The notes beneath the pieces are model-generated. The model ran no database searches and had not been told where the DNA came from. It saw nothing but the letters and a program-made list of their open reading frames with translations. A stretch of DNA of 64,000 bases from positions 14,276 through 78,275 of the IMG/VR virus record IMGVR_UViG_3300020474_001461; one strand, 5' to 3'. Shown here piece after piece: positions 1 to 63,615 of the stretch. Every line of letters starts with the position of its first letter. The stretch's first letter is position 1. Source of the DNA: a virus. Both the position numbers and the translations under genes were made by a program.

Positions 1-272
1 CTTGTTGTTTGGTCACAATGAATCCAACTTCTATCTCTTGATGTTGTAAACTGATATGCTCCTGTATACTCTTCACTACCCCAATATACGATATCACCCC
101 AATGTGGTGATATTACACCATTGATTACTTCTTTTATGGAATCGTTTAGGAATGATTTAGTTCGGGGGCCTGGATAATTACCTGTAACATTGAAATCTTG
201 TTCTAATGCAAACTGTCTTACTTCATCGACATTACTATAGAACTCATCTATGATAAATGCGTTTAGTCTCAT
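1..272 (-). CDS. 2OG-Fe(II) oxygenase-like protein (DUF6445-like), partial, runs off window; not in ORF track
   Basis: Manual translation MRLNAFIIDEFYSNVDEVRQFALEQDFNVTGNYPGPRT...SWIHCDQT; IIDxFY, NYPGxRT and HxD motifs. Confidence 0.65.
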   Translation of the reverse strand, partial: MRLNAFIIDEFYSNVDEVRQFALEQDFNVTGNYPGPRTKSFLNDSIKEVINGVISPHWGDIVYWGSEEYTGAYQFTTSRDRSWIHCDQTT

Positions 273-288
273 AACTTCTTTCTTAATA

Positions 289-432
289 TTAAATCGTTCT
301 AAATCTTCTCGATGAATTCCAATAAATTCTTGGAGTTGCTCCTAAGAACTTTTTTCTACTAACTCTGTCATTGAATTCGTTACGGGTTTGATTTAGTTGT
401 GTATTTCCGTTTTGTTGTTCTTGATTAATCAT
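289..432 (-). CDS. small hypothetical protein (47 aa), below ORF-track cutoff
   Basis: MINQEQQNGNTQLNQTRNEFNDRVSRKKFLGATPRIYWNSSRRFRTI* fills the gap between neighbours. Confidence 0.6.
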   Translation of the reverse strand: MINQEQQNGNTQLNQTRNEFNDRVSRKKFLGATPRIYWNSSRRFRTI

Positions 433-439
433 TACTTTT

Positions 440-1354
440 TTACATATATTGTGTTATAGCATCAGGAGCGTTATTCTTTATCCAATTATAAAGTTTATTT
501 TTCCAAATCTTTTCAGGTAATATACTACCACCTTCTTTCTTTACAGGTAAAGATAAAAATCCTTTTGCGATTCCATCAACTTCATTTCCATCTGCGTCTT
601 TATATTTTATTGTATGTTCAGGGTTGTTAAGAATCACATCTACTCTACCATTTAAACCTTTTGGCATCGCCTTTGTTACAAGACCCCAAACAGTATTTGA
701 TGCACCTTCGTGAGTTTTTAGTAAAGTATCTTCAGGTACCATTCTCTCTCTTGTCTTGTTGTTTTCCATTGCAGTTACAAAGTTAGTAAGAACCCATGTT
801 AAATGGATATTTTCAGATTTGTATCCTGCTTTTTCTAACTTAGGAATTACACCTGAAATATCCGTAACTTTTTTCGCTGTAATATCAAACATAATGTTAG
901 GAAGTGTCTCAGGGTTATTTTTACCTACCAATAGTGTTTCTAATGAACTATCTTTAATACCCATTGCTTTTACTAACATATGTAATGCTGTAACGTGATT
1001 AGGTTGTTTTAGGTTTAAATTTCTTAGTTGGAATCCCTGTGCTTGTATACTTCTAATGTTTTCTATTTCACTTGCTGGTATATTTTTACTATACTTTTTT
1101 AAGATTCCGTCTATATCAAGTTTACCTAATCTATTTAGAATCTGTAATTGTTTTTTCATTTTATCGACATCACGAACCTTGAACATTTCTCTGTCTAAAA
1201 AGTGTTTTGATGCGAATCCTTTACCTGAACCTGCTCCACCTGCTAAAAAAACTACCTGACCGTATGGTTTTCTGTTATTGTAAACCATTAACTTTTCGTC
1301 AAGTTGTTCTTCGTTAATTACTTCTAATATGAAATCTTTTATATTCCAACTCAT
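440..1354 (-). CDS. P-loop kinase (zeta-toxin/AAA_33-like), probable internal head protein
   Basis: VVFLAGGAGSGKG Walker A, downstream IMFDIT; N-terminal ILE/INE/LDE motifs. Confidence 0.65.
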   Translation of the reverse strand: MSWNIKDFILEVINEEQLDEKLMVYNNRKPYGQVVFLAGGAGSGKGFASKHFLDREMFKVRDVDKMKKQLQILNRLGKLDIDGILKKYSKNIPASEIENIRSIQAQGFQLRNLNLKQPNHVTALHMLVKAMGIKDSSLETLLVGKNNPETLPNIMFDITAKKVTDISGVIPKLEKAGYKSENIHLTWVLTNFVTAMENNKTRERMVPEDTLLKTHEGASNTVWGLVTKAMPKGLNGRVDVILNNPEHTIKYKDADGNEVDGIAKGFLSLPVKKEGGSILPEKIWKNKLYNWIKNNAPDAITQYM

Positions 1355-1533
1355 TTCTTAACTCCGTTGTACGGAAACATCCTATTTAACTTTTCACGTC
1401 TCTTGTCACACCCGCAATCATCTGCTCCTGCGACCTCTGCGATTTTCTCAGCCAACTTATCTAATTTTGTTGCTGATGTGATTTTTGCTATGGTATCACC
1501 TAAACCTTTTGATGGTATGTTAGTTTTCTTCAT
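1351..1533 (-). CDS. small phage protein with CGC motif
   Basis: KGLGDTIAKIT...DCGCDKRREKLN; translationally coupled to neighbours. Confidence 0.6.
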   Translation of the reverse strand: MKKTNIPSKGLGDTIAKITSATKLDKLAEKIAEVAGADDCGCDKRREKLNRMFPYNGVKK

Positions 1534-1765
1534 AGTAGTTCACTTCCACATTAAATCCATTTTCAATAAATAGTTCAAAATAATGTTCAACGATAATTTC
1601 ATCACCTGTAAATATATCACAACCACCTGTTCTATGAACTATATCTGCTATTGACTGACCTTGGGTGGTCGGATATGACAGATATTTTTTTAGTATATTT
1701 ATCACGTCAATAAAACTATTCTTATTATCATTCAATAATCTTAAAGTTTTTTTGTTTGTTGTCAT
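1520..1765 (-). CDS. clpS: ClpS-like Clp protease adaptor
   Basis: LRLLNDNKNSFIDVINIL...IADIVHRTGGCDIFTG matches the ClpS core LxNDDxNTFxxV...VHxxGxxxVxTG. Confidence 0.65.
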   Translation of the reverse strand: MTTNKKTLRLLNDNKNSFIDVINILKKYLSYPTTQGQSIADIVHRTGGCDIFTGDEIIVEHYFELFIENGFNVEVNYYEEN

Positions 1766-1962
1766 AAATCGTAATAAACTACTTTTTCTATATCGTACTT
1801 GTTTTTAAACTTTGTGATGTAAATTGGAACCTCGACTTCGTGACAAATCTCTGCTTCTACTTTGGTTCCACCTGGCTCATCTGTTACTACATATAAAATT
1901 TTGTTACCTAATTCTTTAGTACTCGATAAGAAATCATCAAGACTTTTTACTACTATTTTCAT
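1762..1962 (-). CDS. hypothetical protein (probable start ATG 1962, MKIVVKS)
   Basis: ORF coupled to flanking genes. Confidence 0.5.
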   Translation of the reverse strand: MKIVVKSLDDFLSSTKELGNKILYVVTDEPGGTKVEAEICHEVEVPIYITKFKNKYDIEKVVYYDL

Positions 1963-2146
1963 TTGTTCTCTCCAACATATCCATGAGTTGTTGAACGTGT
2001 TTACACTTTTCGTAATCCTCAACGGATTCATAGTGTTTTAACATTTTCGTTAATACTCTTTTTTTAGTAGACTTGTCAATATAAGTTGGGTTGTACAACA
2101 ATATGTCGTAAACCTCATCAATCGCTTTGTCTACATAGTTATCCAT
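1937..2146 (-). CDS. small protein with UVR (UvrB/C)-like motif
   Basis: HYESVEDYEKCKHVQQLM resembles the EDYExAAxxRD UVR motif. Confidence 0.5.
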   Translation of the reverse strand: MDNYVDKAIDEVYDILLYNPTYIDKSTKKRVLTKMLKHYESVEDYEKCKHVQQLMDMLERTNENSSKKS

Positions 2147-2172
2147 AAATATATTTTGGAAAGTTAATAAAA

Positions 2173-2556
2173 CTATAATTTACCCACTGCTTCAGAAAAA
2201 ATCCACCCTAAAAGACCAATTAGACCACTAAATAGTACCCAAAGTGCTCTTGATACTGTAGATTTCCACTCTTGAAGTTTTTCTAATTCATTTTCTAATT
2301 CTAAAATTCTTTCAGGAACTTGTTCCATGTCTTCTCTGACTTCAGTGTTTTTGTTCACTCTGACTATGACTCCGTTATCAGGATTTAGTAGTGTATACTT
2401 GATGTCGGATAAGTCCTCTTTAATATCTGTATAATTTTCTTTCATCTCGGTAATTGTTGTCTCCATTCGTTTTAACTCACCATTTGGGAGTTTATTTTTC
2501 ATAGACGACAATTCCTCAAGAATATTTTCTAAAATGTCTTTATTCGTAGTTGCCAT
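2173..2556 (-). CDS. coiled-coil protein with C-terminal transmembrane helix
   Basis: Heptad-rich body; ALWVLFSGLIGLLGWIF. Confidence 0.6.
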   Translation of the reverse strand: MATTNKDILENILEELSSMKNKLPNGELKRMETTITEMKENYTDIKEDLSDIKYTLLNPDNGVIVRVNKNTEVREDMEQVPERILELENELEKLQEWKSTVSRALWVLFSGLIGLLGWIFSEAVGKL

Positions 2557-2571
2557 TGTGTACCCTATTTG

Positions 2572-3141
2572 TTATAAATATGTCTTCGACAACTCTTCTA
2601 TATGATTTTCTATTAATTTCTTTTTTTGACTTGATGTCAGGTGTTCAACTGCGAGTACAGATTTGATTCTTACATCAGGATATTTTCTTTGTAACTGTTG
2701 TACTGCTCTTACATTTTTAAGTGAATCATCCATAAATGCAATATCAGTATAACCTTTTGATATATGTTTTTCAATCCAATCTGCTTTATCTTTAGGATTG
2801 TTACTTGCTAATGTGACAGGATATACGTCCAATCCGTATTCATCTTTAAAAAACTTTCTGATTGGGAATCCTAATGCTCTTGCTGTAAGTATCGTAACCT
2901 TTTTATTTGGGTTTTTTAACATTTGTTGGAGTAACTTGAAGTTTTTCTTAATTACTTGGGGGTTGTTCAACATACTGTTAAAATCTCTGAAGTCGAACTC
3001 ATCACCTCTTTTTGGTTTATATTTTGCATATTGAGAAGGTGATAAAGTTGTTTCTTTTCCATCTTTATGTTTTACATAGATGTATGCTACACTTTTTGCA
3101 AGTGTATCATCAAAATCAAAAACTCTTAATATTCTACCCAT
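2572..3141 (-). CDS. HAD-superfamily phosphatase (polynucleotide/RNA-repair HAD-like)
   Basis: VFDFDDTL motif I, ILTAR motif II, K, FMDDSxKN motif IV. Confidence 0.75.
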   Translation of the reverse strand: MGRILRVFDFDDTLAKSVAYIYVKHKDGKETTLSPSQYAKYKPKRGDEFDFRDFNSMLNNPQVIKKNFKLLQQMLKNPNKKVTILTARALGFPIRKFFKDEYGLDVYPVTLASNNPKDKADWIEKHISKGYTDIAFMDDSLKNVRAVQQLQRKYPDVRIKSVLAVEHLTSSQKKKLIENHIEELSKTYL

Positions 3142-3157
3142 AATTTATCCTTTAGTA

Positions 3158-3189
3158 TAAATATACGAAATTTTTGGTAATTTTCCAAA
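3158..3189 (-). promoter_or_regulatory. Bacteroidota-type -33/-7 promoter overlapping a late TATTTATA motif
   Basis: Minus strand TTTG-N20-TATATTTA(TA). Confidence 0.65.
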
Positions 3190-3212
3190 TATTTTAACAC
3201 TTTTTAACAGTA

Positions 3213-4016
3213 CTATTTTAATCTGGCTCTAAATGGGATGTCGTTTTCTCTCCAAAACGCATTTAACATACTATGGAAGTTCTTGATAAGTTCTACTGCT
3301 TCTTTTTTCTTTTGAGGTGTGTTGGTATCTAATCTTCCTTGTGGAATGATTCCTTTTGTAAATTGACTGATTTTAAAAATACCGACCTCATTTAGGTCTT
3401 CACCTTCTTTTTGGTAAGTATTTCTACCATGTAAACATCTACCATCTAATGTTACAGGGCCTGGACATTTATCTCCTTTATTATCATAATAAATTTCTTT
3501 GATTTGATTAATTCTGTTTGTTTTCTTGAAAGTTTCTTTATCAAATATCAAATCATCATCTACCATTAGAATCATTAACTGTCTACCAAATTTTTTGTCA
3601 TCTTTCATAAAAGTAAACATTGGTGCGTTCTTTCTTGCCCATTTATACCACAACGCTGATAATATTAAAAACATTTTAGTAGAATCACCTTTTTGTTTTA
3701 ACATCATCTTTTTAACCATTTTTCTATTCTTGTACACCCACTTTTTGAAATCCATATATACAAACTCATTTGGAGTGTCCATAGGTATTGGTCTTTGTTC
3801 ATTTATTGATTCATCTTGTGGCATATCTTCAGGGAATTCTACTTCTATAGATTCTTTTACGATTCTAAAGTTGACTACTTTCCTACCATTGATTGTTGGC
3901 ATACCATAATCGTCCTTACCGATTGATTTAACGGTAGTTCTTTTGTTTTTGAACCTACCTGTTAAAATCGTATCCCCAACCTTTATAGGTAATACTATGT
4001 TTTCGTTTAGTTTCAT
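3213..4016 (-). CDS. hypothetical modular protein, probable internal head protein
   Basis: Segments separated by LNE/INE motifs (MKLNE, SINE, DLNE). Confidence 0.6.
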   Translation of the reverse strand: MKLNENIVLPIKVGDTILTGRFKNKRTTVKSIGKDDYGMPTINGRKVVNFRIVKESIEVEFPEDMPQDESINEQRPIPMDTPNEFVYMDFKKWVYKNRKMVKKMMLKQKGDSTKMFLILSALWYKWARKNAPMFTFMKDDKKFGRQLMILMVDDDLIFDKETFKKTNRINQIKEIYYDNKGDKCPGPVTLDGRCLHGRNTYQKEGEDLNEVGIFKISQFTKGIIPQGRLDTNTPQKKKEAVELIKNFHSMLNAFWRENDIPFRARLK

Positions 4017-4394
4017 TTATTTGATTTTCTTTAAAATAGGTTCAATATCTAATGCTATCGTATATTGTTCTTTATGTCTGTATTCGATAGGAACAAATCT
4101 TTGTTTTGTTTTCTTTGATGCGAACTCTGCTAATTGTTTAGTGATATCATCTTTTGATATACTACCCAAAGTATCAATCTTATCCAAGTCTTTTGAACTC
4201 TTTGGAATACAAATTAAAGTTGGACCTTTACCTAAGTAATCAGCATTAACATAATTAAAATTAAACTCAACATATTGAGATGGTAGTTGTGAGTCTTTTG
4301 CGTTTGATGTTAATACAACCTTTGCTTTTCCATAAAACATCACTTCGTTTAATGGTTGTTTTCCTTCGTTCAATATGTCTTTTAATTTTATCAT
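4017..4394 (-). CDS. hypothetical protein, probable internal head protein
   Basis: N-terminus MIKLKDILNEGKQPLNE. Confidence 0.6.
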   Translation of the reverse strand: MIKLKDILNEGKQPLNEVMFYGKAKVVLTSNAKDSQLPSQYVEFNFNYVNADYLGKGPTLICIPKSSKDLDKIDTLGSISKDDITKQLAEFASKKTKQRFVPIEYRHKEQYTIALDIEPILKKIK

Positions 4395-4400
4395 AATTTT

Positions 4401-4940
4401 CTAATTTAATAAATACCCGTAAGGTGTTGCGTCTATATCCAATCCTATTGGATAGTTTTCTAATCTTAAATCAACACTCATATTTCTTTGAATGTATGGA
4501 TTGTAAAACTGACCTACGGCAGTTAAACAAATTAATCCATTGTGTACATCCATTACTTGAACATCATTCCAAATAATATATTCTTGGTCGCCTGGTATTT
4601 CAACACCTGCATATTTGTTATCAGGATTTTCCCAAGTGTATTGTCCGATATCTAATAACGCTCCATTATCATCTGCGTCTGAATCTAAACAATACAATGC
4701 GAAATGTTGTCTGTCCAATCTTGGTTCTCCATCATCTACTTGTAGATAAAGGATAAATATTTTCTTGATAGTATCACCGTATTTTATACCACCAAATGTT
4801 TTGATTTGTGCGTATCTATCATTTGGGTCAAAAGACTCACCATCAAGTGAAATCTCTAATACAGGTTCTAATATCTCTTCCTTTTCACAGGAAATAAATA
4901 AAAATGACAAAACACTTAAAAATACTAATAATTTTTTCAT
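4401..4940 (-). CDS. lipoprotein, probably surface-exposed
   Basis: SPII signal MKKLLVFLSVLSFLFIS-C followed by EKEE. Confidence 0.7.
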   Translation of the reverse strand: MKKLLVFLSVLSFLFISCEKEEILEPVLEISLDGESFDPNDRYAQIKTFGGIKYGDTIKKIFILYLQVDDGEPRLDRQHFALYCLDSDADDNGALLDIGQYTWENPDNKYAGVEIPGDQEYIIWNDVQVMDVHNGLICLTAVGQFYNPYIQRNMSVDLRLENYPIGLDIDATPYGYLLN

Positions 4941-4965
4941 ACTAATTTCTCCTACGATATAAATA

Positions 4966-5613
4966 TCATAACCTTTTCATTTTATTTAGATAATCATACA
5001 TTGAATATCCTAACTTCATACCGAACTTTGAATCGGTCTCGTAATGTGCTCTTCCAATATTTCTACTTCTTGAAATATCTCTACCCAAATTCATGAAATT
5101 ATACTCATGGTCAGGGTACATATCTGACATTACTTTCGCTATAAGTATTCCTTGACAGGAATGACCACTTGGATATGATGGGGTGTTCATTGACTCCATA
5201 TATGCTTCTTTTCCAATATCAATCTTTACCAACGGGTGGTCAGCAATTTGATATGGTCTTGGTCTATTATAGTGAATCTTTAGTGTTCTTGTGAATATTC
5301 TACTGTCATCTAATAGTTGGTCTACCAAGGATTGGGGAAAATCTAATCCTTGTATATCGCAGTAGTTTTTAAATACTTTGTCAATAGCATCCATTTCTCT
5401 GACAAAATCTATATCGTGAGGAAGGTCACTTAACTTCCTTAATTCTATTTTTACTTTTGATGAATCATTCTGAGGTGGTGGGTTACCTTTGAAATACTCA
5501 ATAGGGAATCCTTGAAGAAGGTTTGGTTTTTGATTTATTACCTTTATATCCTTCTTTCTTGGTTCATCCATGAACCTCATGGATTTTAAACTGAGTATAT
5601 CACCTAATTTCAT
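4966..5613 (-). CDS. PAP2/vanadium haloperoxidase-superfamily acid phosphatase
   Basis: KxxYNRPRP, PSYPSGHS and SRxxxxxHYxxD motifs. Confidence 0.8.
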   Translation of the reverse strand: MKLGDILSLKSMRFMDEPRKKDIKVINQKPNLLQGFPIEYFKGNPPPQNDSSKVKIELRKLSDLPHDIDFVREMDAIDKVFKNYCDIQGLDFPQSLVDQLLDDSRIFTRTLKIHYNRPRPYQIADHPLVKIDIGKEAYMESMNTPSYPSGHSCQGILIAKVMSDMYPDHEYNFMNLGRDISRSRNIGRAHYETDSKFGMKLGYSMYDYLNKMKRL

Positions 5614-5753
5614 CTCCCTTGGCCTCTGTATGGTTTTTTATAGTGTTTACTGTTTTTACCCTTTGACGTTTTTGTCTTAGAGTGAATACCTGGCCTCTTC
5701 TTCTTAGGTTTATCGTAATAAGTAGAGGTACCAAATCCTTTCGCTTTTGCCAT
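5610..5753 (-). CDS. small very basic protein (47 aa), not in ORF track
   Basis: MAKAKGFGTSTYYDKPKKKRPGIHSKTKTSKGKNSKHYKKPYRGQGR*; ATGA overlap with the next gene. Confidence 0.7.
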   Translation of the reverse strand: MAKAKGFGTSTYYDKPKKKRPGIHSKTKTSKGKNSKHYKKPYRGQGR

Positions 5754-5767
5754 TTAATGCAACCTTT

Positions 5768-6175: not shown

Positions 6176-6186
6176 GCTAACCTATT

Positions 6187-6471: not shown

Positions 6472-6488
6472 AACAAATCCTCTTAATC

Positions 6489-7742: not shown

Positions 7743-7764
7743 CGTGGTTCTTTACCCTTCTCTT

Positions 7765-8013: not shown

Positions 8014-8060
8014 AATATAACCTTTTTATAACTTGTTACTAATATAAATAGTCTGTTTTT

Positions 8061-9263: not shown

Positions 9264-9275
9264 AAAATCTCCTTA

Positions 9276-50921: not shown

Positions 50922-50951
50922 TTTCTAATGTTAAATTTATGTTAAATTTTG

Positions 50952-53305: not shown

Positions 53306-53308
53306 AAC

Positions 53309-53614: not shown

Positions 53615-53619
53615 AATTA

Positions 53620-56442: not shown

Positions 56443-58787
56443 TATACTGCCCTACTTTGTCTTGAACGTTGTACTCTTGTTATTTCACTAATAACTTTAC
56501 CATCGACAACTATTTGTATTGGTTGTCCTGCTATATCACTTCTAAGTCCTTTTAATTCACTAACTACGTCTGAGTCACCACCTTCATCACCACCACCAAA
56601 GATTCCACCTAATGCTCCACCAAGTGCAAGTAGTGCGGGTGCTGCTACTGATAACGCGAGTAACATTCCTAATATAGGAAGTGCTGCCATTCCTGCATAT
56701 CCCATTATTCCTAATCCGGCTGCGATTGAAATTAATCCTGCTCCAACCATTAGTAATGGACCTGCTACTTGACCTAATGTCGCAAGACTTTCAACCATAC
56801 CGTCCATACCCGAATCACCCAACATTCCAAACGCCATTGCTGCGGGTATTAATGCTAATCCTAATATCATTAATGCTGCCGCCCCTGCTATGACAAATGG
56901 AGCAATAAATCCAAGTCCGGCTGCTGCTAATGCAAGTAGAGGTAACATTATAGAGAAGGCAATCATTTTACCAACATCTACATTTTCTAATAAACTAAAT
57001 GCGTATGCTGCTGGTATCAATGCGACTGCTACTATTCCAAGTGCGAGGGCACCCATAATTACGTTTCCTGCCACATTAGCTATTAATGAGAGAGTTGCAC
57101 CTAAGATACCCATTGATACTGAGAATGCTAACATTTTAACAGGGTCAACATCACCTAATACTTCCATTGCTACTGCAAACCCAACACCTAATATTGCTAC
57201 AACCCCTGCTAAAGTTAATGCACCTAATAATGTCTTACCTGCTCCTTTTGCGAATGCCTGTAGTCCATCTCTTAATCCTGTTAAGAATGATTTAATACCA
57301 CCTGCTTTTTTAGGGTCAACATCACCATCTATTTTAGGTGTTTCTATTTTTGGTTTTTTACTCATGCCAGGAATTAGGTTTTTAAAACCCATATCTTTAC
57401 CTTGCATTTTGTTCATGATAGCCATTTGAGCAACCGCTCCTGCAAATGCTGTTCCGATATTTAAACCAAAACTACCAACTTTACCCATAATTTGTGCAGT
57501 TTTTGCATCTGCTTCTGCTAATGCCTGAAGTTCTTCAGTACTCATAGTTGGGTTTTCTGCTTTCAATCTTGCGAATTGTTCTTGTTTAACCACCATGTCA
57601 GAAAGACCATCAACGTTTGTACCCATCAATGCTGCGACTGCTTCTTTTTCTTTTCTATTCATTTCACCGAATCGTTCAGCATCTACACCTGCTTGTTTTA
57701 ATGCTTGACCCATTAGTTCCATACCTTCGGCTTCATCACCAAATTCAAATGCCATCGCGGCGTCTCTAAATGCACCTGCTGAACCTGCAATATCATCCAT
57801 ACCCATCGCTCTTACTTTCATTTCTGCTCGTAAAGAGGTTTCAATGTTTAAGAGATTACCTGACATCTCTTCCATCTGAGCCATTGTGACACCCTGTCTT
57901 TGTAATTCTGCTGTTTTCTTCGCAAGATTCTTTAATTCTTCTGCTGATGCTCCAACAAGTAATCCTGCCGAACCTGCCATTTGTTTAAATAATGCACTTG
58001 CATTAACACCTTCTTTAGTTGCGATTGCTCTAATATCATCGGTAAGGTCTGAACTATTCTGTGCTGTTTGTTCAAATATTTCGTTTAATTTAACTGAGTT
58101 CGCTGCGTCACCTGTTAGTGCTGTTAGTTCTGCAATATCTTTTTGCATTTGTGATGTGATACCTCGTGTCGTTCCAAAGAAATCACCTGCGTCTTTTGCT
58201 GCTGCTGATAATCCTTCCACACCATAGAGTAAACCTTCAATACTAATTGCTGCTCCAAGTGTTTGAAAACCTAATCGTGTCGCTTCATCTGCTGAGGTAC
58301 CCATGTTTGTATAAAGGTCTTTTGCAAGACCCACGGTATTATTCATTACATCACCAAGATATTCTATTGCTTTAGTTGTTGCTACAATACCAACACCGAT
58401 TGCACCACCTTGTTGAAATGCTTTGACAAATTCATTGTTCATTCCTGACGCGTCTTTTAATTTGTCGTTAAGGTCATCCATTAACCCTTTTCGTTTTTCT
58501 TCAAGTTTCATGATGTCTCTTGTAGTTGTGAGTTCATCAATCATTTCTTGATTTATATCAGTCTTAGTTTTTGCTTGTTCAAGTAATAATTCGTTGATTG
58601 CTTCGTCTAACTTTTGGATACCGTCTGCAGATTTAATTCTATCCTGCAACTTACTGTCAAGGTCGATTGCAATTTCAATCGCCCTTTCGTTTTCCATATT
58701 CGTACCTTCAACAATACCTTTTAACTTTTCAGCAAGGTTTATTTGTTCAATGTACGCTTGTTTTTTTTGTTTGTTAGACTCTGCCAT
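56442..58787 (-). CDS. tape measure protein
   Basis: Helical Ala/Gly-rich, hydrophobic C-terminal repeats, IQIVVDGKVI end; position after chaperone. Confidence 0.8.
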   Translation of the reverse strand: MAESNKQKKQAYIEQINLAEKLKGIVEGTNMENERAIEIAIDLDSKLQDRIKSADGIQKLDEAINELLLEQAKTKTDINQEMIDELTTTRDIMKLEEKRKGLMDDLNDKLKDASGMNNEFVKAFQQGGAIGVGIVATTKAIEYLGDVMNNTVGLAKDLYTNMGTSADEATRLGFQTLGAAISIEGLLYGVEGLSAAAKDAGDFFGTTRGITSQMQKDIAELTALTGDAANSVKLNEIFEQTAQNSSDLTDDIRAIATKEGVNASALFKQMAGSAGLLVGASAEELKNLAKKTAELQRQGVTMAQMEEMSGNLLNIETSLRAEMKVRAMGMDDIAGSAGAFRDAAMAFEFGDEAEGMELMGQALKQAGVDAERFGEMNRKEKEAVAALMGTNVDGLSDMVVKQEQFARLKAENPTMSTEELQALAEADAKTAQIMGKVGSFGLNIGTAFAGAVAQMAIMNKMQGKDMGFKNLIPGMSKKPKIETPKIDGDVDPKKAGGIKSFLTGLRDGLQAFAKGAGKTLLGALTLAGVVAILGVGFAVAMEVLGDVDPVKMLAFSVSMGILGATLSLIANVAGNVIMGALALGIVAVALIPAAYAFSLLENVDVGKMIAFSIMLPLLALAAAGLGFIAPFVIAGAAALMILGLALIPAAMAFGMLGDSGMDGMVESLATLGQVAGPLLMVGAGLISIAAGLGIMGYAGMAALPILGMLLALSVAAPALLALGGALGGIFGGGDEGGDSDVVSELKGLRSDIAGQPIQIVVDGKVISEITRVQRSRQSRAV

Positions 58788-58801
58788 TATACCCCTCTAT
58801 A

Positions 58802-59044
58802 TTATATAACACCTAATGAATGTGCTTTTCTAAGAGATTGTTGTAGTTTTCTTATTGCGTCTTTTTGTTGTGGGTTTTTTACTTTTTCTATTTTTGAGTC
58901 TATTTCATTATCAATCTTGTCGATATTCTTTCTTAGTCTCATTTTTTTGAAGATATCAAAGATACCTTCGTCTAAACCATACGCGTCAAATATCTTTTTT
59001 AAATCTGATTCTTTAATAGTTTTCATAGGAATTCCTTTGTTCAT
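58802..59044 (-). CDS. small hypothetical late protein
   Basis: IKE/LDE motifs; own TATTTATA motif at 59049-59056. Confidence 0.55.
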   Translation of the reverse strand: MNKGIPMKTIKESDLKKIFDAYGLDEGIFDIFKKMRLRKNIDKIDNEIDSKIEKVKNPQQKDAIRKLQQSLRKAHSLGVI

Positions 59045-59059
59045 ATGTTATAAATATGT

Positions 59060-59083
59060 AAAAACCCAACATTTACGTTGGGT
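59060..59083 (-). terminator. intrinsic terminator
   Basis: ACCCAAC-loop-GTTGGGT followed by a U-run on the minus strand. Confidence 0.7.
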
Positions 59084-59088
59084 CTATA

Positions 59089-59310
59089 CTATCTTCTTGG
59101 AGTTCTTGATTTAGCTTTTCTCATTTCCTTATCATGATGTTTCTTTTCTTCCTTCTTGAATTCAATTATTTTCTGTATATAAAACTCTCTTACCCAAACA
59201 GGAAAGTTATAAACATCACTAAAATTAAATCCACCATTTCCGTGATAAATAAGGTCGAAGATTTGAGAATGTAACTGCTTTCTATAGTTAATTGTTAGGC
59301 CAAAAAAACC
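59089..59310 (-). CDS. start-less gp51/'T'-like chaperone extension, probably reached by frameshift; not in ORF track
   Basis: GFFGLTINYRKQLHSQIFDLIYHGNGGFNFSDVYNFPVWVREFYIQKIIEFKKEE...RR*; no ATG/GTG/TTG until the last 11 codons. Confidence 0.7.
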   Translation of the reverse strand, partial: GFFGLTINYRKQLHSQIFDLIYHGNGGFNFSDVYNFPVWVREFYIQKIIEFKKEEKKHHDKEMRKAKSRTPRR

Positions 59311-60166
59311 CGATATCCATAGGAAGTGTCATTTCTCTCCCTTCCCCGCTTTCCTCAGAAATAAACTCAAATGTTAAATCAATATCGGGAGTAACTTTTG
59401 TTATATACGCTCTGAGTGCTCTTGAATCCACCGCAAATAACTCGTTGTCCACAAAATGGTTGATGTCTTTTTGTTCTTCTGAACCATCTATTGATAAAAT
59501 TGTATTCTTCAATCTTGTAGTTAACTGTCTTGAAGTCATATCTTTAATTTTACGATTTGCTTTCTTCAGTGATTCTACTTGATGTTTTACTTTTCTTTCT
59601 TTTGACTCATTCATAGCCATAAAAGTAATTTTTCTCTTTGATTGGGGTAATGTGAACTCAAATTCATTTTTATTTGGTTCTGTTTGATTAGACCCATCAT
59701 ATGGTTTGTTTTCAAATTGTGTTAAATCAATATTTTCTTGTTGTTTAGTCCCTGGCCTTGTTGGGTCTTCTACTTCTACTTTGTAGTCTTTACCATATCC
59801 AAGAATTCTTGCTGCAATCATAATTGCGTTCTTGTCACCTGTTACTAAATCTGTATAATTTATTGATTCACCTTTATCATTACCTATAACTAAAGATTTA
59901 AACAATCTGTCTAATACTGTTCCATCTTTAATATATGATTGGGTTGTTAAGATATCTTCCTCTTTTGCAGTCATATATTTCATTTCTATTTTACCTGTTG
60001 AGAGAGGGTTATCTTTTGGATAGATTAAACCATTTGACGGTAAATCTATGATTTCTGTAGGAAATTTGTAATCACGAATTTGTTTTGATTCGTGTTCCTT
60101 TTTGACTTTTTCTACCAACTCCTCGTTAGAAAGAGGGTAATCGTCAGTTAATTTTTGATTTGCCAT
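59288..60166 (-). CDS. tail assembly chaperone / T4 gp26-like baseplate hub assembly protein
   Basis: IDLPS.G..Y, MTAKEEDIL, GD.NAIMIAAR..GYG; ends GFFWP. Confidence 0.75.
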   Translation of the reverse strand: MANQKLTDDYPLSNEELVEKVKKEHESKQIRDYKFPTEIIDLPSNGLIYPKDNPLSTGKIEMKYMTAKEEDILTTQSYIKDGTVLDRLFKSLVIGNDKGESINYTDLVTGDKNAIMIAARILGYGKDYKVEVEDPTRPGTKQQENIDLTQFENKPYDGSNQTEPNKNEFEFTLPQSKRKITFMAMNESKERKVKHQVESLKKANRKIKDMTSRQLTTRLKNTILSIDGSEEQKDINHFVDNELFAVDSRALRAYITKVTPDIDLTFEFISEESGEGREMTLPMDIGFFWPNN

Positions 60167-60234
60167 AATAAAACTCGTTTTATAATTTGTTGTACTGTAC
60201 TATAATATATATGAAATCGCAAAATAATTAATAC

Positions 60235-60260
60235 AAAAAACCCCCAAAAAGATGGGGGTT
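60235..60260 (-). terminator. intrinsic terminator
   Basis: AACCCCCA-loop-TGGGGGTT plus U-run. Confidence 0.75.
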
Positions 60261-60284
60261 AATGTTTTTTGAAGATTTTTAGTG

Positions 60285-60548
60285 TTATGCCCAAGTATAA
60301 CTTCCTTCTGAACCATTTAAGATTGCTCCTGATTCTTTATCCTCAGGTACATCTGCGTCATCCATAGTGATTTTATCTCTTCCGATATAATCCCAACCAT
60401 CAGTAGGTAGTTTCATTTCAGCTGTTTCCTCTGAAATAGTAAAGTGGGTTGCTGCTTCACCACCATTATCTTTATCTACCCAAGTGTAACCGTGACCAAA
60501 CCACTCTACAACGTTATCTTCTTTACGTCTTACTAAATTGTATGCCAT
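60285..60548 (-). CDS. hypothetical protein
   Basis: AGGAG SD; flanked by terminators. Confidence 0.6.
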   Translation of the reverse strand: MAYNLVRRKEDNVVEWFGHGYTWVDKDNGGEAATHFTISEETAEMKLPTDGWDYIGRDKITMDDADVPEDKESGAILNGSEGSYTWA

Positions 60549-60609
60549 TTTAAACTCCTATATTGGTTAACCATATATTGTATACAGTAATAAGTATATA
60601 ATTAAAAGT

Positions 60610-60634
60610 AAAAAACCCACCGATTGGTGGGTTT
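60610..60634 (-). terminator. intrinsic terminator after the tail tube gene
   Basis: AAACCCACC-AATC-GGTGGGTTT plus U-run. Confidence 0.8.
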
Positions 60635-60663
60635 CAATTTTTATTATTAAAGTAATATTATGA

Positions 60664-61152
60664 TTAGTATTGTAAAATTGCGTAATCGTAAGTAAGTGTC
60701 ATTTCTACTGTTGCTAAGTCTTCACCTGTATAATCCATGTCAGAGAAGTTTGCTGATTGAATGTAGGCACCTTTTAATGTCCACTCTTCTACTTTATCAC
60801 CAACAGGACCCAAACTGTTAAATGTGATGTCTTTTTTGTAGAAGTCAGAGTATCCATCTCTACCTGTTACTGATTCATGGTGTAATCTAACCCACTCCAT
60901 TACTGCTTGTGCCGCTGACGGTACTACAGGGTCATATAGAGTGATTGCCAAATCTTGCCATTCTGAACGACCTTTAACATATCTTCTTACGTTAATGTGG
61001 TCGATTGTCACTTTACCATTCTGAATCTCAGGTCTTGCTGACGTTTTAATTAAATACGCAGGTATTCCTTCGATGTACATGATGAACCTATTTGACATTT
61101 TAGGTTCAAAGTTCGTGAACATAATTTCTGTTGGGTCTAATAATTGTGCCAT
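60664..61152 (-). CDS. tail tube protein (gp19-like)
   Basis: EPK..NRF, W.D..ITLYD, YKKD, EEWTL.GA, LTYDYA. Confidence 0.9.
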   Translation of the reverse strand: MAQLLDPTEIMFTNFEPKMSNRFIMYIEGIPAYLIKTSARPEIQNGKVTIDHINVRRYVKGRSEWQDLAITLYDPVVPSAAQAVMEWVRLHHESVTGRDGYSDFYKKDITFNSLGPVGDKVEEWTLKGAYIQSANFSDMDYTGEDLATVEMTLTYDYAILQY

Positions 61153-61176
61153 TTATGTCTCCTATTATCTCTTTCT

Positions 61177-61184
61177 AATAAATA
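61177..61184 (-). promoter_or_regulatory. putative late promoter TATTTATT
   Basis: Shared motif upstream of structural genes. Confidence 0.55.
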
Positions 61185-61200
61185 GTCTTTTTTTTATTTT

Positions 61201-63615
61201 TTATCCTTCAGGGAACGCTGCACCTGTTGGTAGTACGTTGAAATCAAGTACTATAAACTCTGCAGTTTTCGCTGGTTGTATAAATATCTCACCTTTTAAG
61301 ATGTTTCTATCAATCACGTCAGGTGTATTGTTTGATTCATCCATGATAACACGGAATGCGTAAAGACCTTGTCTTTGTTGTACTGATTCTAAGTAAGGAT
61401 TAACGATACTTAAGAATCTGTTTCTTGTCGCTGCCGTATTGTTCTCGAAAATTAGATATCTTGAAGATGATGCTATGAACTTCTTCAATGCTATTAACAA
61501 TCTTCTTACATTTATTCTGTCAAGTGCACTTGGTTTTGCTTGGAGTGTTTTTTGTCCAAATACAGTTGCTCCTTGGCCAGGAAATGTTGCGATTGGGTTA
61601 ATTCTATTTTCGTATAATGTGTCTCTTTCAGTATGAGTCAATCTTGATTTAACTTCGATTACGTTTGGTAATCCACCTCTGTTAAGACCTGCTGGTGCGA
61701 ACCATGGTTCTGCAACTGCGTCATTAAATGCTATAACGCCAGGAATAACAACACTTGGTGGTACCCAAATTGGTTTATTCTTGTCTGTATCAAGTATTTT
61801 AACCCATGGATGGTAAGTACCAACGTAGTTTGAGTCAAATGAACTTAATGAGTTAACTACTGTAGATATTGAATCTTGATATGCTCCTGCGTCCATTACA
61901 TAGAATGCGTCTTGTCTATCTTCAACCATATCTTTTGCAAATGTACTTACTGAAGAGTGTAATCTATTGATAACACCTGGCAGTACTAACATATTTAAGT
62001 CATACTCATCAGGATTTGATAATGCGTTAATTGCTTTTCTATATGCTACCGTTCCTGCTGCAGTTGCTCCTGATAGGTCAAAACCTTGTGAGTTTCCTGC
62101 TACAATGTTTGAACCAACATATACTGTTCTGTTTGGTTCAAATCCATCGAATCCACCTTGGAAAGGTACTAAGAATTTTTTATTATCTATAATTCCATCA
62201 TTCAATGCAATCGCTGCTCCGTTTGAGATACAGTTACTTAATAAGAACTTACTACCAACTGTAGTTGAACTTGCGTCAGGAGTTGGACTTAAGTAGTTTA
62301 AGTTATCTGTAGTTACGAAGTCGTATGAATATCCTAAGAATGCTCTCTTATTAAATTCACCACTTATAGATTGTGTTAAATTGTATGTTGGTGATGGTAA
62401 AGTTGCTCCACTTGGAAGTGGTGATGTTACTTTTGCAAATCCAAATGGTACAAGAGTTGAATTCATTGCTCCTGAATCCACATCACTGTCAACTTCTACT
62501 CTAATATTTACAGATGCGTTTGGATAGTCACCATTTAAGATTACTTTTCCATTTGCGTCTATTTGAATCTCTTTGTCACCGATAATTCTCTTAATATAGT
62601 TTGGTGAGTTAGGGTCTAAGTTAACACCTGAGAACTCTTCTACAATATTTGGTCTTGTATCAGTATCTTGTACTGTTTGACCGAATACAGAGTTAGGAAT
62701 CTTAGAAGTATCTACTCTTCTTACTATTACTGAGAATGTACCGTATTCAGAACCAGGCACCTCTGATGCTGGTTTGATATCTCTAATACCTATTTTAAAT
62801 TCATAGTTTGTTGGGTTACCGTGTGATAACGTGTGGAATCTAAATAGGTTTTTAGTAACACCTGATACATCTTGTGATATAATATAAGGTGTTGTTGCGT
62901 GTGAGTATGCTTTTGTATAATCTATACTTGAATTAGAAATTGTCAATCTTACTTCTTCACCCGTTGCGAATGATTGAGATGCGAATGTACTAAATTCATT
63001 GTATAAATATGCATATTGACCATCGTTTTTAGGAGAGAAACCGAATGTCTTAGCTATATAATTGTTTGCCGTGGGATTTAATGAACCTGTTGGTACTGCT
63101 AATTGTGCTGATGCTGATAATACACTGATTCCGGCTGATGCACTTAAATATAGAGCGAAATTAGATGCTGATACTTCAGGTGTTGGTGCACTTGCAGAAC
63201 CACTTAAGTTAGTGATTACAGATTTATCGAGTGACCCTGTAGAGTTTACATTGTTTGCAAACGCCACTTTAGTAGTTGGGTGTAATACCGCTGCTACCTT
63301 CACACCTGCAGATGATGATATACTTAAATTTAATGTTTGTACATTATATCCACTTGCACCTAAAATTCTTACTATTGTTGCAGTTCCTGCTTCTTCTAAA
63401 TAAGATTGTGCTGTATATGGTAAATATGAATCTTCAGTTAATCCACCAAATACTTGTTGAAATTCTTGAAAAGATTCTACCTTCGTTGGTACGAATGCAG
63501 GACCTTTAATACTTTGTCCTACTAACGCTGCACCTATTTCACCTATCCCTTGAGGTAAAAATGAGAGGTCTTTCTCTCTTGTGAATACGCCTGGACTAAC
63601 AATTCTTTCTGCCAT
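61201..63615 (-). CDS. contractile tail sheath protein (gp18-like)
   Basis: SPGVFTRE.D, WFAPAG..RG, INPI, GQKTL, DRINVRRL, DESNNTP.VID, AEFI. Confidence 0.95.
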   Translation of the reverse strand: MAERIVSPGVFTREKDLSFLPQGIGEIGAALVGQSIKGPAFVPTKVESFQEFQQVFGGLTEDSYLPYTAQSYLEEAGTATIVRILGASGYNVQTLNLSISSSAGVKVAAVLHPTTKVAFANNVNSTGSLDKSVITNLSGSASAPTPEVSASNFALYLSASAGISVLSASAQLAVPTGSLNPTANNYIAKTFGFSPKNDGQYAYLYNEFSTFASQSFATGEEVRLTISNSSIDYTKAYSHATTPYIISQDVSGVTKNLFRFHTLSHGNPTNYEFKIGIRDIKPASEVPGSEYGTFSVIVRRVDTSKIPNSVFGQTVQDTDTRPNIVEEFSGVNLDPNSPNYIKRIIGDKEIQIDANGKVILNGDYPNASVNIRVEVDSDVDSGAMNSTLVPFGFAKVTSPLPSGATLPSPTYNLTQSISGEFNKRAFLGYSYDFVTTDNLNYLSPTPDASSTTVGSKFLLSNCISNGAAIALNDGIIDNKKFLVPFQGGFDGFEPNRTVYVGSNIVAGNSQGFDLSGATAAGTVAYRKAINALSNPDEYDLNMLVLPGVINRLHSSVSTFAKDMVEDRQDAFYVMDAGAYQDSISTVVNSLSSFDSNYVGTYHPWVKILDTDKNKPIWVPPSVVIPGVIAFNDAVAEPWFAPAGLNRGGLPNVIEVKSRLTHTERDTLYENRINPIATFPGQGATVFGQKTLQAKPSALDRINVRRLLIALKKFIASSSRYLIFENNTAATRNRFLSIVNPYLESVQQRQGLYAFRVIMDESNNTPDVIDRNILKGEIFIQPAKTAEFIVLDFNVLPTGAAFPEG

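What the first reader, a model, noticed from the sequence alone, without database searches (positions are those of the whole stretch)
169..63594. Every CCNGG overlaps a GpC: footprint of a context-specific cytosine modification that shields restriction sites
Seen: all 32 CCNGG sites found by eye read GCCNGG on one strand (plus-strand starts 169, 1871, 3460, 4591, 5689, 7417, 10634, 13083, 14500, 14791, 18188, 19377, 19751, 19803, 24031, 25952, 33980, 37832, 41925, 45381, 47482, 48102, 52923, 53145, 53849, 57367, 59751, 61577, 61739, 61976, 62753, 63590). Thirty are Pro-Gly dipeptides, where CCNGG cannot be avoided. In each, either Gly uses the otherwise rare GGC or the preceding codon ends in G (GAG, AAG, AGG, GTG, CTG, ACG, CCG, CAG, GCG, GGG), against a strong A/T third-position bias. 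Free CCNGG is almost absent. CCGG behaves the same (18514, 19752, 56716, 56917, 63131 are all CCGGC; 14791 lies within GCCCGG). The only CTAG spotted (53499) reads GCTAG on the minus strand. Known: modifying a C in a recognition site blocks many restriction enzymes, and phage C5-methyltransferase/TET/glycosyltransferase clusters with GpC preference have been reported. Inference: this phage modifies C in GpC (or GCC/GCY) context and has recoded unavoidable sites so their outer C falls in that context, a coupled modify-and-recode anti-restriction strategy. Caveats: AGCT also looks depleted, which argues against blanket GpC protection, and no C5-MTase or TET/JBP gene is in this window.
Basis: partly seen in the sequence, partly recalled or inferred. 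Interest (0 to 1): 0.9.

Follow-up and report, generated by a model that had tools for sequence, protein, structure and literature searches.

The report
GpC-shielded restriction sites in marine phage
This uncultured marine T4-like phage has erased every copy of several restriction-enzyme target words except copies whose outer C sits directly after a G, which points to an unidentified protective mark on G-C steps of its DNA.

Summary
All 32 CCNGG sites in the window (37 of 37 in the 78-kb contig) carry a 5' G or a 3' C. A protein-preserving codon shuffle expects 42 unflanked sites; there are none.

The purged word is wider than CCNGG. It is CYRG (CCAG/CTGG, CCGG, CTAG). The contig has 0 unflanked copies against about 327 expected, while GpC-overlapped CCAG/CTGG and CCGG sit at expectation. 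GATC, which no GpC can overlap, is absent (0 against 168).

At unavoidable Pro-Gly codons the phage supplies the G or C itself: 16 of the contig's 19 GGC codons follow Pro.

Relatives purge other words (CTAG, CATG, CGTC, CTNAG) with the same GpC exemption. The cultured relative Mel-JY01 purges CCAG and CTAG with no exemption. So the exemption most likely belongs to the phage DNA: a GpC-context modification.

No writer was found. C5- and N4-methyltransferase, TET/JBP and DpdA families were not detected. The Mom/DruA genes of sister lineages are missing here.

The scan had already noted this rule on related phage genomes.

The parts
1..64000 (.). Window-wide signature: 59 CYRG sites, 50 with a GpC on the outer C (class A), 9 with a GpC one step out (class B), 0 free. 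GATC 0, GGAGG/CCTCC 0, CTAG 1.
   Evidence: nulls. Non-CCNGG CCAG/CTGG sites, all class A, start at 1075, 3223, 6280, 6815, 7594, 7694, 9745, 10512, 20698, 21067, 24384, 29234, 38466, 39864, 41691, 42084, 47601, 48460, 57011, 61272, 61692, 62769.
169..173 (-). CCNGG, coding TAT CCA GGC (Pro-Gly); rare GGC supplies the C; class B
1871..1875 (-). CCNGG, GAG CCA GGT; preceding codon supplies the G; class A
3460..3464 (-). CCNGG, TGT CCA GGC; class B
4591..4595 (-). CCNGG, ATA CCA GGC; class B
5689..5693 (-). CCNGG, GCCAGG on the coding strand; outside my ORF calls; class A
7417..7421 (-). CCNGG, AAG CCA GGT; class A
10634..10638 (-). CCNGG, TGT CCA GGC; class B
13083..13087 (-). CCNGG, AGG CCA GGA; class A
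14500..14504 (-). CCNGG, AAT CCT GGC; class A (CTGGC)
14791..14795 (-). CCNGG/CCGG, GGG CCC GGT; its CCGG is class B
18188..18192 (-). CCNGG, GAA CCT GGC; class A
19377..19381 (-). CCNGG, CTT CCT GGC; class A
19751..19755 (-). CCNGG/CCGG, GCCGGG on the coding strand; not a Pro-Gly frame; class A
19803..19807 (-). CCNGG, TTT CCT GGC; class A
24031..24035 (-). CCNGG, GTG CCA GGT; class A
25952..25956 (-). CCNGG, CTG CCA GGA; class A
33980..33984 (-). CCNGG, AAG CCA GGA (in PolB); class A
37832..37836 (-). CCNGG, TTT CCT GGC; class A
41925..41929 (-). CCNGG, CCG CCA GGT; class A
45381..45385 (-). CCNGG, CAG CCA GGT; class A
47482..47486 (-). CCNGG, CCAGGC, not in the Pro-Gly frame by my ORF call; the only avoidable class B site
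48102..48106 (-). CCNGG, ATT CCA GGC; class B
52923..52927 (-). CCNGG, ACG CCA GGA; class A
53145..53149 (-). CCNGG, TGT CCT GGC; class A
53849..53853 (-). CCNGG, GCG CCA GGT; class A
57367..57371 (-). CCNGG, ATT CCT GGC; class A
59751..59755 (-). CCNGG, AGG CCA GGG; class A
61577..61581 (-). CCNGG, TTT CCT GGC; class A
61739..61743 (-). CCNGG, ATT CCT GGC; class A
61976..61980 (-). CCNGG, CTG CCA GGT; class A
62753..62757 (-). CCNGG, GTG CCT GGT; class B
63590..63594 (-). CCNGG, AGT CCA GGC; class B
18514..18517 (.). CCGG read as CCGGC; the same holds at 56716, 56917 and 63131
53499..53502 (.). The only CTAG of the window and contig, read as CTAGC
30318..31808 (-). 496-aa GT-B glycosyltransferase between clamp loader and sliding clamp. 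Candidate DNA-modifying enzyme. It occupies the slot that holds a DruA-type GNAT in sister lineages.
   Evidence: No Pfam hit. AlphaFold2 pLDDT 88.8. Foldseek finds the GT-B fold; top hits include SenB and the phage HY126 glycosyltransferase, E about 1e-8 to 1e-9. Distant homologue beside PolB in G3-G6. No homologue in 50,697 GenBank phage records.
28293..28703 (-). DUF1599 / 'nucleotide modification associated domain 1' protein next to the clamp loader. Among the most conserved genes of the family.
   Evidence: Pfam 24 bits, just under the cut-off. 68-80% identity in G3-G6. More than 6000 homologues in metagenomes. Structure prediction poor, pLDDT 53.
35311..38040 (-). 2OG-Fe(II) oxygenase (35311-35868), UDP-galactopyranose mutase (35865-36977) and GT2 (36952-38040) just upstream of PolB. 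The last two are specific to this lineage.
22036..24740 (-). Two GT4-type glycosyltransferases conserved across the whole family
45619..46488 (-). Methyltransf_24 protein beside gp32 (PHROG labelled 'DNA methyltransferase'). Patchy distribution; absent from the complete genome G003.
9766..21508 (-). Largely lineage-specific sugar-nucleotide and glycosyltransferase cluster: GT2s, two epimerase/dehydratases, UDP-glucose dehydrogenase, aldolase fused to a CMP-ulosonic-acid synthetase, Maf-like protein, 2OG oxygenase

Best explanation
The DNA of this phage, and of its whole family of uncultured marine T4-like phages, most likely carries a modification on the G:C pairs of GpC steps. The modified base is probably the cytosine and the group probably small. 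This mark blocks many restriction enzymes when it falls on the outer C of their site. Sites the mark cannot cover are removed by synonymous recoding. In this lineage those are CYRG (CCAG/CTGG, CCGG, CTAG), CCWGG, GATC and GGAGG/CCTCC. Where the protein forces a site (Pro-Gly = CCN GGN), the phage instead creates the GpC, either with a G-ending codon before Pro or with the otherwise almost unused Gly codon GGC. Shown: the sequence rule, its strength, its maintenance by selection, its recurrence with other motifs in relatives, and its absence in a cultured relative. Inferred: that the cause is a chemical modification, which base carries it, and who writes it. The writer is unidentified and could be phage-encoded (I favour this) or a conserved host enzyme.
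For: (1) In the contig, free CCAG/CTGG is 0 against 213.7 expected, free CCGG 0 against 21.6, free CTAG 0 against 91.4. GpC-overlapped CCAG/CTGG is 51 against 47.4 and CCGG 5 against 6.0. (2) At forced Pro-Gly sites the classes are A 24 (null 2.5), B 10 (null 2.1), F 0 (null 29.4). 16 of 19 GGC codons follow Pro, and 13 of those 16 follow a residue that has no G-ending codon. (3) The rule is maintained. A near relative (G001, 181 kb, 89% nucleotide identity) has 5 free CYRG against about 840 expected. Of 23 CYRG sites gained or lost between the two genomes, 22 are GpC-overlapped, although free-flank one-step precursors outnumber flanked ones 5528 to 1823. (4) Only the G at -1 matters; all four bases occur at -2. 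(5) The same exemption appears with other motifs in other lineages. CTAG in G3: 62 of 114 shielded against 6 of 226 free; G4 and G5 behave likewise. CATG in G6: 232 of 201 against 46 of 565. CGTC/GACG in G4: 61 of 72 against 8 of 382. CTNAG in G5: free 0 of 238. CGWCG in G1: 7 of 12 against 0 of 58. (6) Negative control: Microcystis phage Mel-JY01 purges CCAG equally in both classes (0.23 against 0.26) and CTAG completely (0 of 18 and 0 of 47). (7) GATC, which no GpC can overlap, is simply absent. (8) Phage GpC-specific cytosine modification is a known strategy (PMC8256090).
Against: No modification has been observed; public runs holding this DNA are kept only as contigs. No plausible writer is encoded. 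PF00145, PF01555, PF01702, PF12851 and PF02086 give no match in the relatives searched, which include the 94%-complete G001 and the complete G003 and G006. In this contig itself only PF00145, PF12851 and PF01702 were searched, also without a match. The only ThyA homologue is an ordinary thymidylate synthase. The Mom x2 and DruA genes that sister lineages carry in the replisome operon are absent from this contig and from G001. The shield is not universal. CCTCC shows no exemption (1 against about 10 expected). CATG in G4 shows none. Some sites with an internal GpC are still purged: AAGCTT 3 against 28 in G1, GTGCAC 1 against 16 and CTGCAG 7 against 28 in G5. Shielded CTAG is still depleted in this lineage (contig 1 against 18.2; G001 16 against 56). 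GpC itself is scarce (1206 against 1423 in the null; simple O/E 0.59). Sites with the GpC one step out (CCAGGC) are used at forced positions but avoided elsewhere (1 against 13 in G001), which needs an extra assumption: partial protection, or a second enzyme specific for CCWGG.
Confidence: 0.6

Rival explanations
1. There is no modification. The host restriction enzymes themselves do not cut sites preceded by G; for example, one enzyme would recognise HCYRGD. G-flanked sites are then simply not targets.
For: HCYRGD is a proper degenerate 6-bp palindrome. Enzymes with H/D positions exist (Bsp1286I, GDGCHC; from my own knowledge). No writer gene was found.
Against: At least six different motifs in five lineages would each need an enzyme with the same 'not G at -1' rule. 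Mel-JY01 purges CCAG and CTAG with no flank rule. HCCAGGC matches HCYRGD, yet it is the form chosen at forced sites. A GpC that counts both on the site edge and one step out fits a mark on a dinucleotide better than protein read-out.
Confidence: 0.2
2. The mark exists but is written by a conserved host GpC methyltransferase, not by the phage. Progeny always carry it, and it shields against the strain-variable restriction enzymes of the same host group.
For: This explains the missing phage writer and the persistence of the rule in a lineage that lost Mom/DruA. It also explains the family-wide rule with lineage-specific motif sets.
Against: Bacterial dinucleotide GpC methyltransferases are not known; M.CviPI and the phage enzymes are viral (PMC8256090). 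The hosts are unknown and probably differ between lineages that are 53-97% identical in PolB. Nothing here tests this idea.
Confidence: 0.15
3. Self-avoidance: the phage carries its own site-specific nuclease for host DNA breakdown and has removed that enzyme's sites from its own genome.
For: The near relative G001 has a lineage-specific 155-aa PvuII-like endonuclease next to thyA (27.5 bits). The contig encodes a non-specific endonuclease and a PD-(D/E)XK nuclease.
Against: One nuclease cannot explain five or more unrelated purged words or the family-wide GpC rule. The PvuII-like gene is absent from G3-G10, which show the rule. CAGCTG itself is not purged (9 in G001, 4 in the window).
Confidence: 0.04
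4. Composition or codon-usage artefact, or a context-dependent mutation bias, with no selection on sites.
For: GC is 33%, skew is strong and GpC is scarce.
Against: The null keeps each gene's protein and codon usage and still expects about 327 free CYRG against 0. Only the G/C flank is exempt. Mel-JY01, of similar composition, shows no such pattern. Both orientations of CCAG are purged on a one-strand genome.
Confidence: 0.01

Closest known systems
Restriction-site (short palindrome) avoidance in virulent phage genomes
   Same: Short restriction-type words are strongly depleted against a protein-preserving null, in a lineage-specific way (GATC, CTAG, CCGG, CCWGG, CATG and others).
   Different: Here avoidance is conditional on the flank. 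Copies overlapped by GpC sit at or near expectation while all others are gone. Unavoidable Pro-Gly sites are recoded to create the GpC.
Phage C5-methyltransferase / TET (5mYOX) / glycosyltransferase hypermodification of GpC cytosines (Burke et al. 2021, PMC8256090; Pyle et al. 2023 preprint)
   Same: The inferred target context is the same (GpC; GpC[C/T] is the commonest known specificity). The proposed role, protection from host nucleases, is the same. Many glycosyltransferases are encoded.
   Different: No C5-methyltransferase and no TET/JBP gene was found in this contig, in a 94%-complete near relative or in complete sister genomes. The exemption also covers GCA and GCG in relatives.
Phage Mu Mom / DruA-type GNAT DNA modifiers
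   Same: Sister lineages G002-G006, G008 and G010 carry two Mom-family genes (150-166 bits) and one DruA gene inside the replisome operon. Mom is a context-specific, post-replicative anti-restriction modifier.
   Different: These genes are absent from this contig and from G001, where the rule is strongest. Their slots hold a GT-B glycosyltransferase and a Glf/GT2 pair. Mom modifies adenine, not a GpC pair.
T-even type cytosine replacement with glycosylation (glucosyl-5hmC in T4; arabinosyl-5hoC in RB69, DLP3, HY126; PMC13326640)
   Same: The phage is T4-like with a GT-B glycosyltransferase in the replication module. Foldseek's top hits include the HY126 glycosyltransferase. Sugar-nucleotide genes, including a UDP-galactopyranose mutase, are present.
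   Different: There is no dCMP hydroxymethylase or hydroxylase; the single ThyA homologue is a normal thymidylate synthase. Wholesale replacement of C would not give a GpC-specific exemption or leave so many sites needing to be purged.

Membership tests
Restriction-site avoidance in phage genomes | Depletion of short restriction-type words beyond what protein sequence and codon usage explain | tested here: met
   GATC 0 of 168, CTAG 1 of 111, CCAG/CTGG 61 of 268, CCGG 6 of 27.5, CCTCC 0 of 59.5
Restriction-site avoidance in phage genomes | The motif set differs between related lineages, as expected for host-specific pressure | tested here: met
   CYRG in this lineage only. CATG in G4 and G6, CGTC in G4, CTNAG in G5
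Phage C5-MT/TET/GT GpC hypermodification | Cytosine-5 DNA methyltransferase gene (PF00145) | tested here: not met
   No match at E<=1 in the contig or in G001-G005. No PCQ+ENV motif pair in G1 or G3 ORFs.
Phage C5-MT/TET/GT GpC hypermodification | TET/JBP dioxygenase gene (PF12851) | tested here: not met
   No match in the contig or in G001-G010. The 2OG oxygenases present match the prolyl-hydroxylase-like family PF13640.
Phage C5-MT/TET/GT GpC hypermodification | Modified cytosine in GpC context in virion DNA | not testable with these tools
   Only inferred from the flank rule. Public runs are held as contigs.
Mom / DruA GNAT DNA modification | Mom (PF25680) or DruA (PF14236) gene | tested here: not met
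   Absent from G000 and G001; present in G002-G006, G008 and G010. tblastn of the G3 proteins against the contig and G001 finds nothing.
T-even type cytosine replacement plus glycosylation | ThyA-homologous dCMP hydroxymethylase or 5-hydroxylase | tested here: not met
   None in the contig. The one PF00303 gene per relative scores 300 bits, and its best PDB matches are thymidylate synthases at E about 1e-71.
T-even type cytosine replacement plus glycosylation | GT-B DNA glycosyltransferase | tested here: inconclusive
   The 496-aa protein has a confident GT-B fold. A phage DNA glycosyltransferase (HY126) is among the top hits, but it does not stand out from other GT-B enzymes.
7-deazaguanine (DpdA) DNA modification | tRNA-guanine-transglycosylase-like DpdA (PF01702) | tested here: not met
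   No match in the contig, G001, G003 or G005
N4/N6 DNA methyltransferases | PF01555 or PF02086 domain | tested here: not met
   Not searched in this contig itself. No PF01555 match in G001, G003 or G005. No PF02086 match in G001-G010. The Methyltransf_24 gene at 45619-46488 is patchy and absent from the complete G003.

The most novel reading that the evidence does not exclude
An abundant family of marine T4-like phages marks GpC steps of its DNA with a chemistry or enzyme family not yet described, with no C5- or N4-methyltransferase, TET, DpdA or ThyA-type synthase. In this lineage the writer could be a replisome-embedded GT-B glycosyltransferase, a 2OG oxygenase or the DUF1599 protein. The genome has co-evolved with the mark, so its restriction-site map reads out the mark's specificity.
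Probability: 0.35. Interest if true: 0.9.

Novelty: new variant of a known kind. Interest (0 to 1): 0.78.

Why it matters
If a GpC mark exists, it belongs to phages found in marine metagenomes of at least nine studies from 2014 to 2025. None of the enzyme families currently used to predict phage DNA modification would write it. The flank-conditional purge is also a general, purely computational way to detect a context-specific DNA modification and read its specificity in uncultured viruses. In addition it reveals the restriction specificities of unknown hosts, here an apparent CYRG activity. The idea is directly testable with native long-read data or with simple digests.

Tried and rejected
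- ThyA homologue as a 5hmC/5hoC synthase: rejected, because it is a canonical thymidylate synthase.
- Methyltransf_24 gene beside gp32 as the family writer: rejected as universal, because it is absent from the complete genome G003 and from G002.
- Mom/DruA GNATs (a lead from earlier scan notes) as the writer: real and conserved in sister lineages, but absent from this contig and from G001, where the rule is strongest.
- PvuII-like nuclease of G001 as the cause of the purge: rejected. It is lineage-specific, CAGCTG is not purged, and it cannot explain the family-wide rule.
- DUF1599 structure: the AlphaFold2 model was too poor (pLDDT 53) for a fold search. Searches of PDB sequences and of the ESM Atlas were uninformative.
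- A base requirement at -2 (a longer modification motif): not found.
- Sequencing runs: the window is held in many marine metagenomes, but only as contigs, so no signal of modification can be read.
- Megablast of 24 kb of the window against GenBank phages found no match.
- The Iyer et al. 2013 paper on Nmad domains is not held in the library.
- The host was not identified.

Full report
**What the window is.** The window is bases 14276-78275 of a 78,275-bp linear IMG/VR viral contig that CheckV rates 41% complete. GC is 32.8% and almost all genes lie on the minus strand. It encodes a T4-like replication and tail module. Identified parts include a family B polymerase, clamp loader, DnaB-type helicase, RecA/UvsX-like recombinase, gp32, ribonucleotide reductase, tail sheath and tape measure. 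The nearest cultured phage is Microcystis phage Mel-JY01, at only 48% PolB identity.

There are many uncultured relatives:
- G001 (180,769 bp, 94% complete) matches the contig at about 89% nucleotide identity.
- G003 (178,233 bp, complete with terminal repeats), G004, G005, G006, G007 and G009 lie at 82% to 55% PolB identity.

The window's DNA is held in marine metagenomes of at least nine studies from 2014 to 2025, but only as contigs.

**Checking the observation.** All 32 listed CCNGG sites exist, there are no others, and each has G at -1 or C at +5. The full contig has 37 of 37. I shuffled synonymous codons within each gene 1000 times, which keeps every protein and each gene's codon usage. 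The null gives 50.3 +/- 3.7 CCNGG, of which 42.4 +/- 3.8 are unflanked. Observed are 37 and 0.

By my ORF of the 32 sites are Pro-Gly codon pairs. GGC is used 19 times among 1637 Gly codons, and 16 of those 19 follow Pro. Of those 16, 13 follow a residue that has no G-ending codon (His, Tyr, Cys, Ile, Asn, Phe). Where a G-ending codon exists, it is usually the one used.

**The unit is CYRG, not CCNGG.** The 4-mer table shows CCAG/CTGG at 61 against 268 expected, CCGG at 6 against 27.5, CTAG at 1 against 111 and GATC at 0 against 168. Every one of the 61 surviving CCAG reads GCCAG, CCAGC or CCAGGC. CCAG, CTGG, CCGG and CTAG together are the degenerate palindrome CYRG.

I sorted sites into three classes:
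- Class A: a GpC falls on the outer C.
- Class B: a GpC lies one step out (CCAGGC).
- Class F: free of any such GpC.

In the contig, CCAG/CTGG gives A 51 (null 47.4), B 10 (5.3) and F 0 (213.7). CCGG gives A 5 (6.0) and F 0 (21.6). CTAG gives A 1 (18.2) and F 0 (91.4). So GpC-overlapped CCAG/CTGG and CCGG sit at neutral frequency while all other copies are gone; only CTAG stays depleted even when shielded. All four bases occur at -2, so the determinant is the GpC dinucleotide. GGAGG/CCTCC is also absent (0 against 59.5), with no exemption.

**Forced and avoidable sites.** Pro-Gly always contains a CYRG.

| Site type | Genome | A obs (null) | B obs (null) | F obs (null) |
|---|---|---|---|---|
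| Forced (Pro-Gly) | contig | 24 (2.5) | 10 (2.1) | 0 (29.4) |
| Forced (Pro-Gly) | G001 | 64 (8.7) | 28 (6.8) | 1 (77.6) |
| Avoidable | contig | 33 (68) | 1 (5.5) | 0 (297) |
| Avoidable | G001 | 111 (196) | 1 (13) | 4 (761) |

The ranking is therefore A better than B, and B much better than F. Class B is tolerated only where nothing better can be encoded.

With a 5' G the Pro codon is CCA 14 times against CCT 3. With GGC it is CCT 10 times against CCA 6. In both cases the commoner choice is the one that gives class A.

Pro-Gly itself is depleted at the protein level. Observed over expected is 0.53 here and 0.54 in G001, against 0.72 in G003. Gly-Pro is not depleted.

**Ongoing selection.** The contig and G001 align over 64.7 kb at 89.4% identity. 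Of 23 CYRG sites present in only one of the two, 22 are class A. Yet one-step precursors with free flanks outnumber flanked ones 5528 to 1823. In G001, four of the five free sites lie in the last 1.7 kb of the contig. That stretch may be foreign or chimeric.

**Why the exemption looks like a property of the phage DNA.** The CYRG purge is specific to this lineage: G003 has 361 free CCAG. But G003 shows the same exemption for CTAG, 62 shielded (null 114) against 6 free (null 226). Other lineages purge other words with the same exemption:
- G005: CTAG 0.55 shielded against 0.02 free; CTNAG free 0 of 238.
- G006: CATG 232 of 201 shielded against 46 of 565 free.
- G004: CGTC/GACG 61 of 72 shielded against 8 of 382 free; CTAG 0.70 against 0.01.
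- G001: CGWCG 7 of 12 shielded against 0 of 58 free.

Mel-JY01 has similar composition and also purges GATC, CTAG and CCAG. It shows no exemption: CCAG 0.23 shielded against 0.26 free, and CTAG 0 of 18 and 0 of 47. That many unrelated enzymes sharing a 'not G at -1' rule is unlikely. A mark on GpC explains all of it, including why GATC has no survivors: no GpC can overlap its C.

**Limits of the shield.**
- CATG in G004 is purged whatever its flank, and so is CCTCC here.
- Some sites with an internal GpC are still depleted: AAGCTT 3 against 28 in G001, GTGCAC 1 against 16 and CTGCAG 7 against 28 in G005.
- AGCT is at 0.37 in the contig.
- Shielded CTAG is still depleted in this lineage: contig 1 against 18.2, G001 16 against 56.
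- GpC itself is scarce: 1206 against 1423 +/- 13 in the null, simple O/E 0.59.

A small group such as a methyl, which blocks only enzymes that contact that base, fits these limits better than a bulky glycan. This is inference.

**The search for a writer.** The families searched gave no match:
- C5-methyltransferase (PF00145): none in the contig or in G001-G005.
- N4/N6-methyltransferase (PF01555): none in G001, G003 or G005.
- Dam (PF02086): none in G001-G010.
- TET/JBP (PF12851): none in the contig or in G001-G010.
- DpdA (PF01702): none in the contig, G001, G003 or G005.

The single ThyA homologue of the relatives is an ordinary thymidylate synthase. Methyltransf_24 and FkbM-type genes are patchy.

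Earlier notes of this scan suggested a Mom/DruA-type GNAT writer, so I tested that. G002-G006, G008 and G010 do carry two Mom-family genes (150-166 bits) and a DruA gene inside the replisome operon. This contig and G001 lack them. In their slots sit a 496-aa protein, between the clamp and the clamp loader, and a UDP-galactopyranose mutase/GT2 pair upstream of PolB. The rule is strongest in this lineage and still acts on new sites. So Mom/DruA cannot be its writer here.

The 496-aa protein folds confidently as a GT-B glycosyltransferase (pLDDT 88.8). Its Foldseek top hits include the glycosyltransferase of phage HY126, an arabinosyl-5hoC phage, but these do not stand out from other GT-B enzymes. 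It has distant homologues next to PolB in G003-G007. It has none in 50,697 GenBank phage records, Mel-JY01 included.

Genes shared by the whole family include two GT4 glycosyltransferases, a PD-(D/E)XK nuclease and a very conserved DUF1599 ('nucleotide modification associated domain 1') protein. Mel-JY01 has these too. No gene's distribution matches the exemption cleanly: G007 and G009 show only weak exemption. The writer is unresolved, and a conserved host enzyme cannot be excluded.

**Comparison with what is known.** Restriction-site avoidance is textbook, and GpC-specific phage cytosine modification by C5-MT/TET/GT clusters is published (PMC8256090). Four things are different here:
- The avoidance is conditional on the flank.
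- Forced Pro-Gly sites are recoded to create the GpC.
- An apparent CYRG restriction specificity is revealed.
- Every known writer family that was searched for is absent.

Earlier agents of this scan reported the same rule on related phage genomes. I derived the CYRG rule before reading those notes. Their Mom/DruA lead was tested here and fails for this lineage.

**Verdict.** The best explanation is a GpC-context DNA mark with an unknown writer, at confidence 0.6. The main rival is intrinsic flank discrimination by host nucleases, at 0.2.

Noticed in passing
L093:12930-14469 (G003 32930-34469) and L094:770-1960 (G003 40770-41960): Sister lineages carry two Mom-family genes and one DruA-family GNAT inside the replisome operon. 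They lie upstream of PolB and between the clamp and the clamp loader. In this window's lineage those slots hold Glf/GT2 and a 496-aa GT-B protein instead.
   Followed up: yes
L087:16763-17230 (G001 116763-117230): A 155-aa PvuII-like restriction endonuclease (27.5 bits), specific to G001, sits next to thyA with no recognisable methyltransferase partner. PvuII's protective methylation site is the C of a GpC (from my own knowledge), so a GpC mark would cover it. G001 keeps 9 CAGCTG sites.
   Followed up: partly
G001 179000-180769 (L090/L091): Four of the five free CYRG sites of the 181-kb relative cluster in the last 1.7 kb of its contig. That stretch also holds lineage-specific ORFs, so it may be recently acquired or chimeric.
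   Followed up: no
window 9766-21508: A sugar cluster of about 12 kb, largely specific to this lineage. It holds GT2s, two epimerase/dehydratases, a UDP-glucose dehydrogenase, an HMGL-type aldolase fused to a CMP-ulosonic-acid synthetase, a Maf-like protein and a 2OG oxygenase. The glycan's target (DNA, virion or host surface) is unknown.
   Followed up: partly
whole contig (G000): GpC is scarce overall: 1206 against 1423 +/- 13 in the codon-shuffle null, simple O/E 0.59. Yet it is obligatory beside every CYRG. A cost of the mark, or a nuclease aimed at marked or unmarked GpC, could explain this.
   Followed up: no
window, whole; also G001: GGAGG/CCTCC is completely absent (0 against 59.5 in the contig; 1 in 181 kb of G001) but normal in G003 (44). 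There is no GpC exemption for it. The cause could be an asymmetric restriction target or avoidance of Shine-Dalgarno-like words.
   Followed up: partly
L134 (Mel-JY01 50001-100000): The cultured Microcystis phage Mel-JY01 shares the replication-module order, DUF1599, the GT4 pair and the nuclease. It also purges GATC, CTAG and CCAG, but CCGG and CGCG are several-fold over-represented. It carries a SAM synthase in the same module.
   Followed up: partly
L001:4430-6025, L001:12801-13445; L088:7166-7603: The contig encodes a GroEL-type chaperonin and a sulfotransferase. An APS-kinase-like P-loop protein is conserved in the family. Together the last two suggest sulfated glycans.
   Followed up: no
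window 48830-50053: A 407-aa family-core ORF with no Pfam hit contains, by eye, a PolA-type motif B-like stretch (AKAITFRQLYGG).
   Followed up: no
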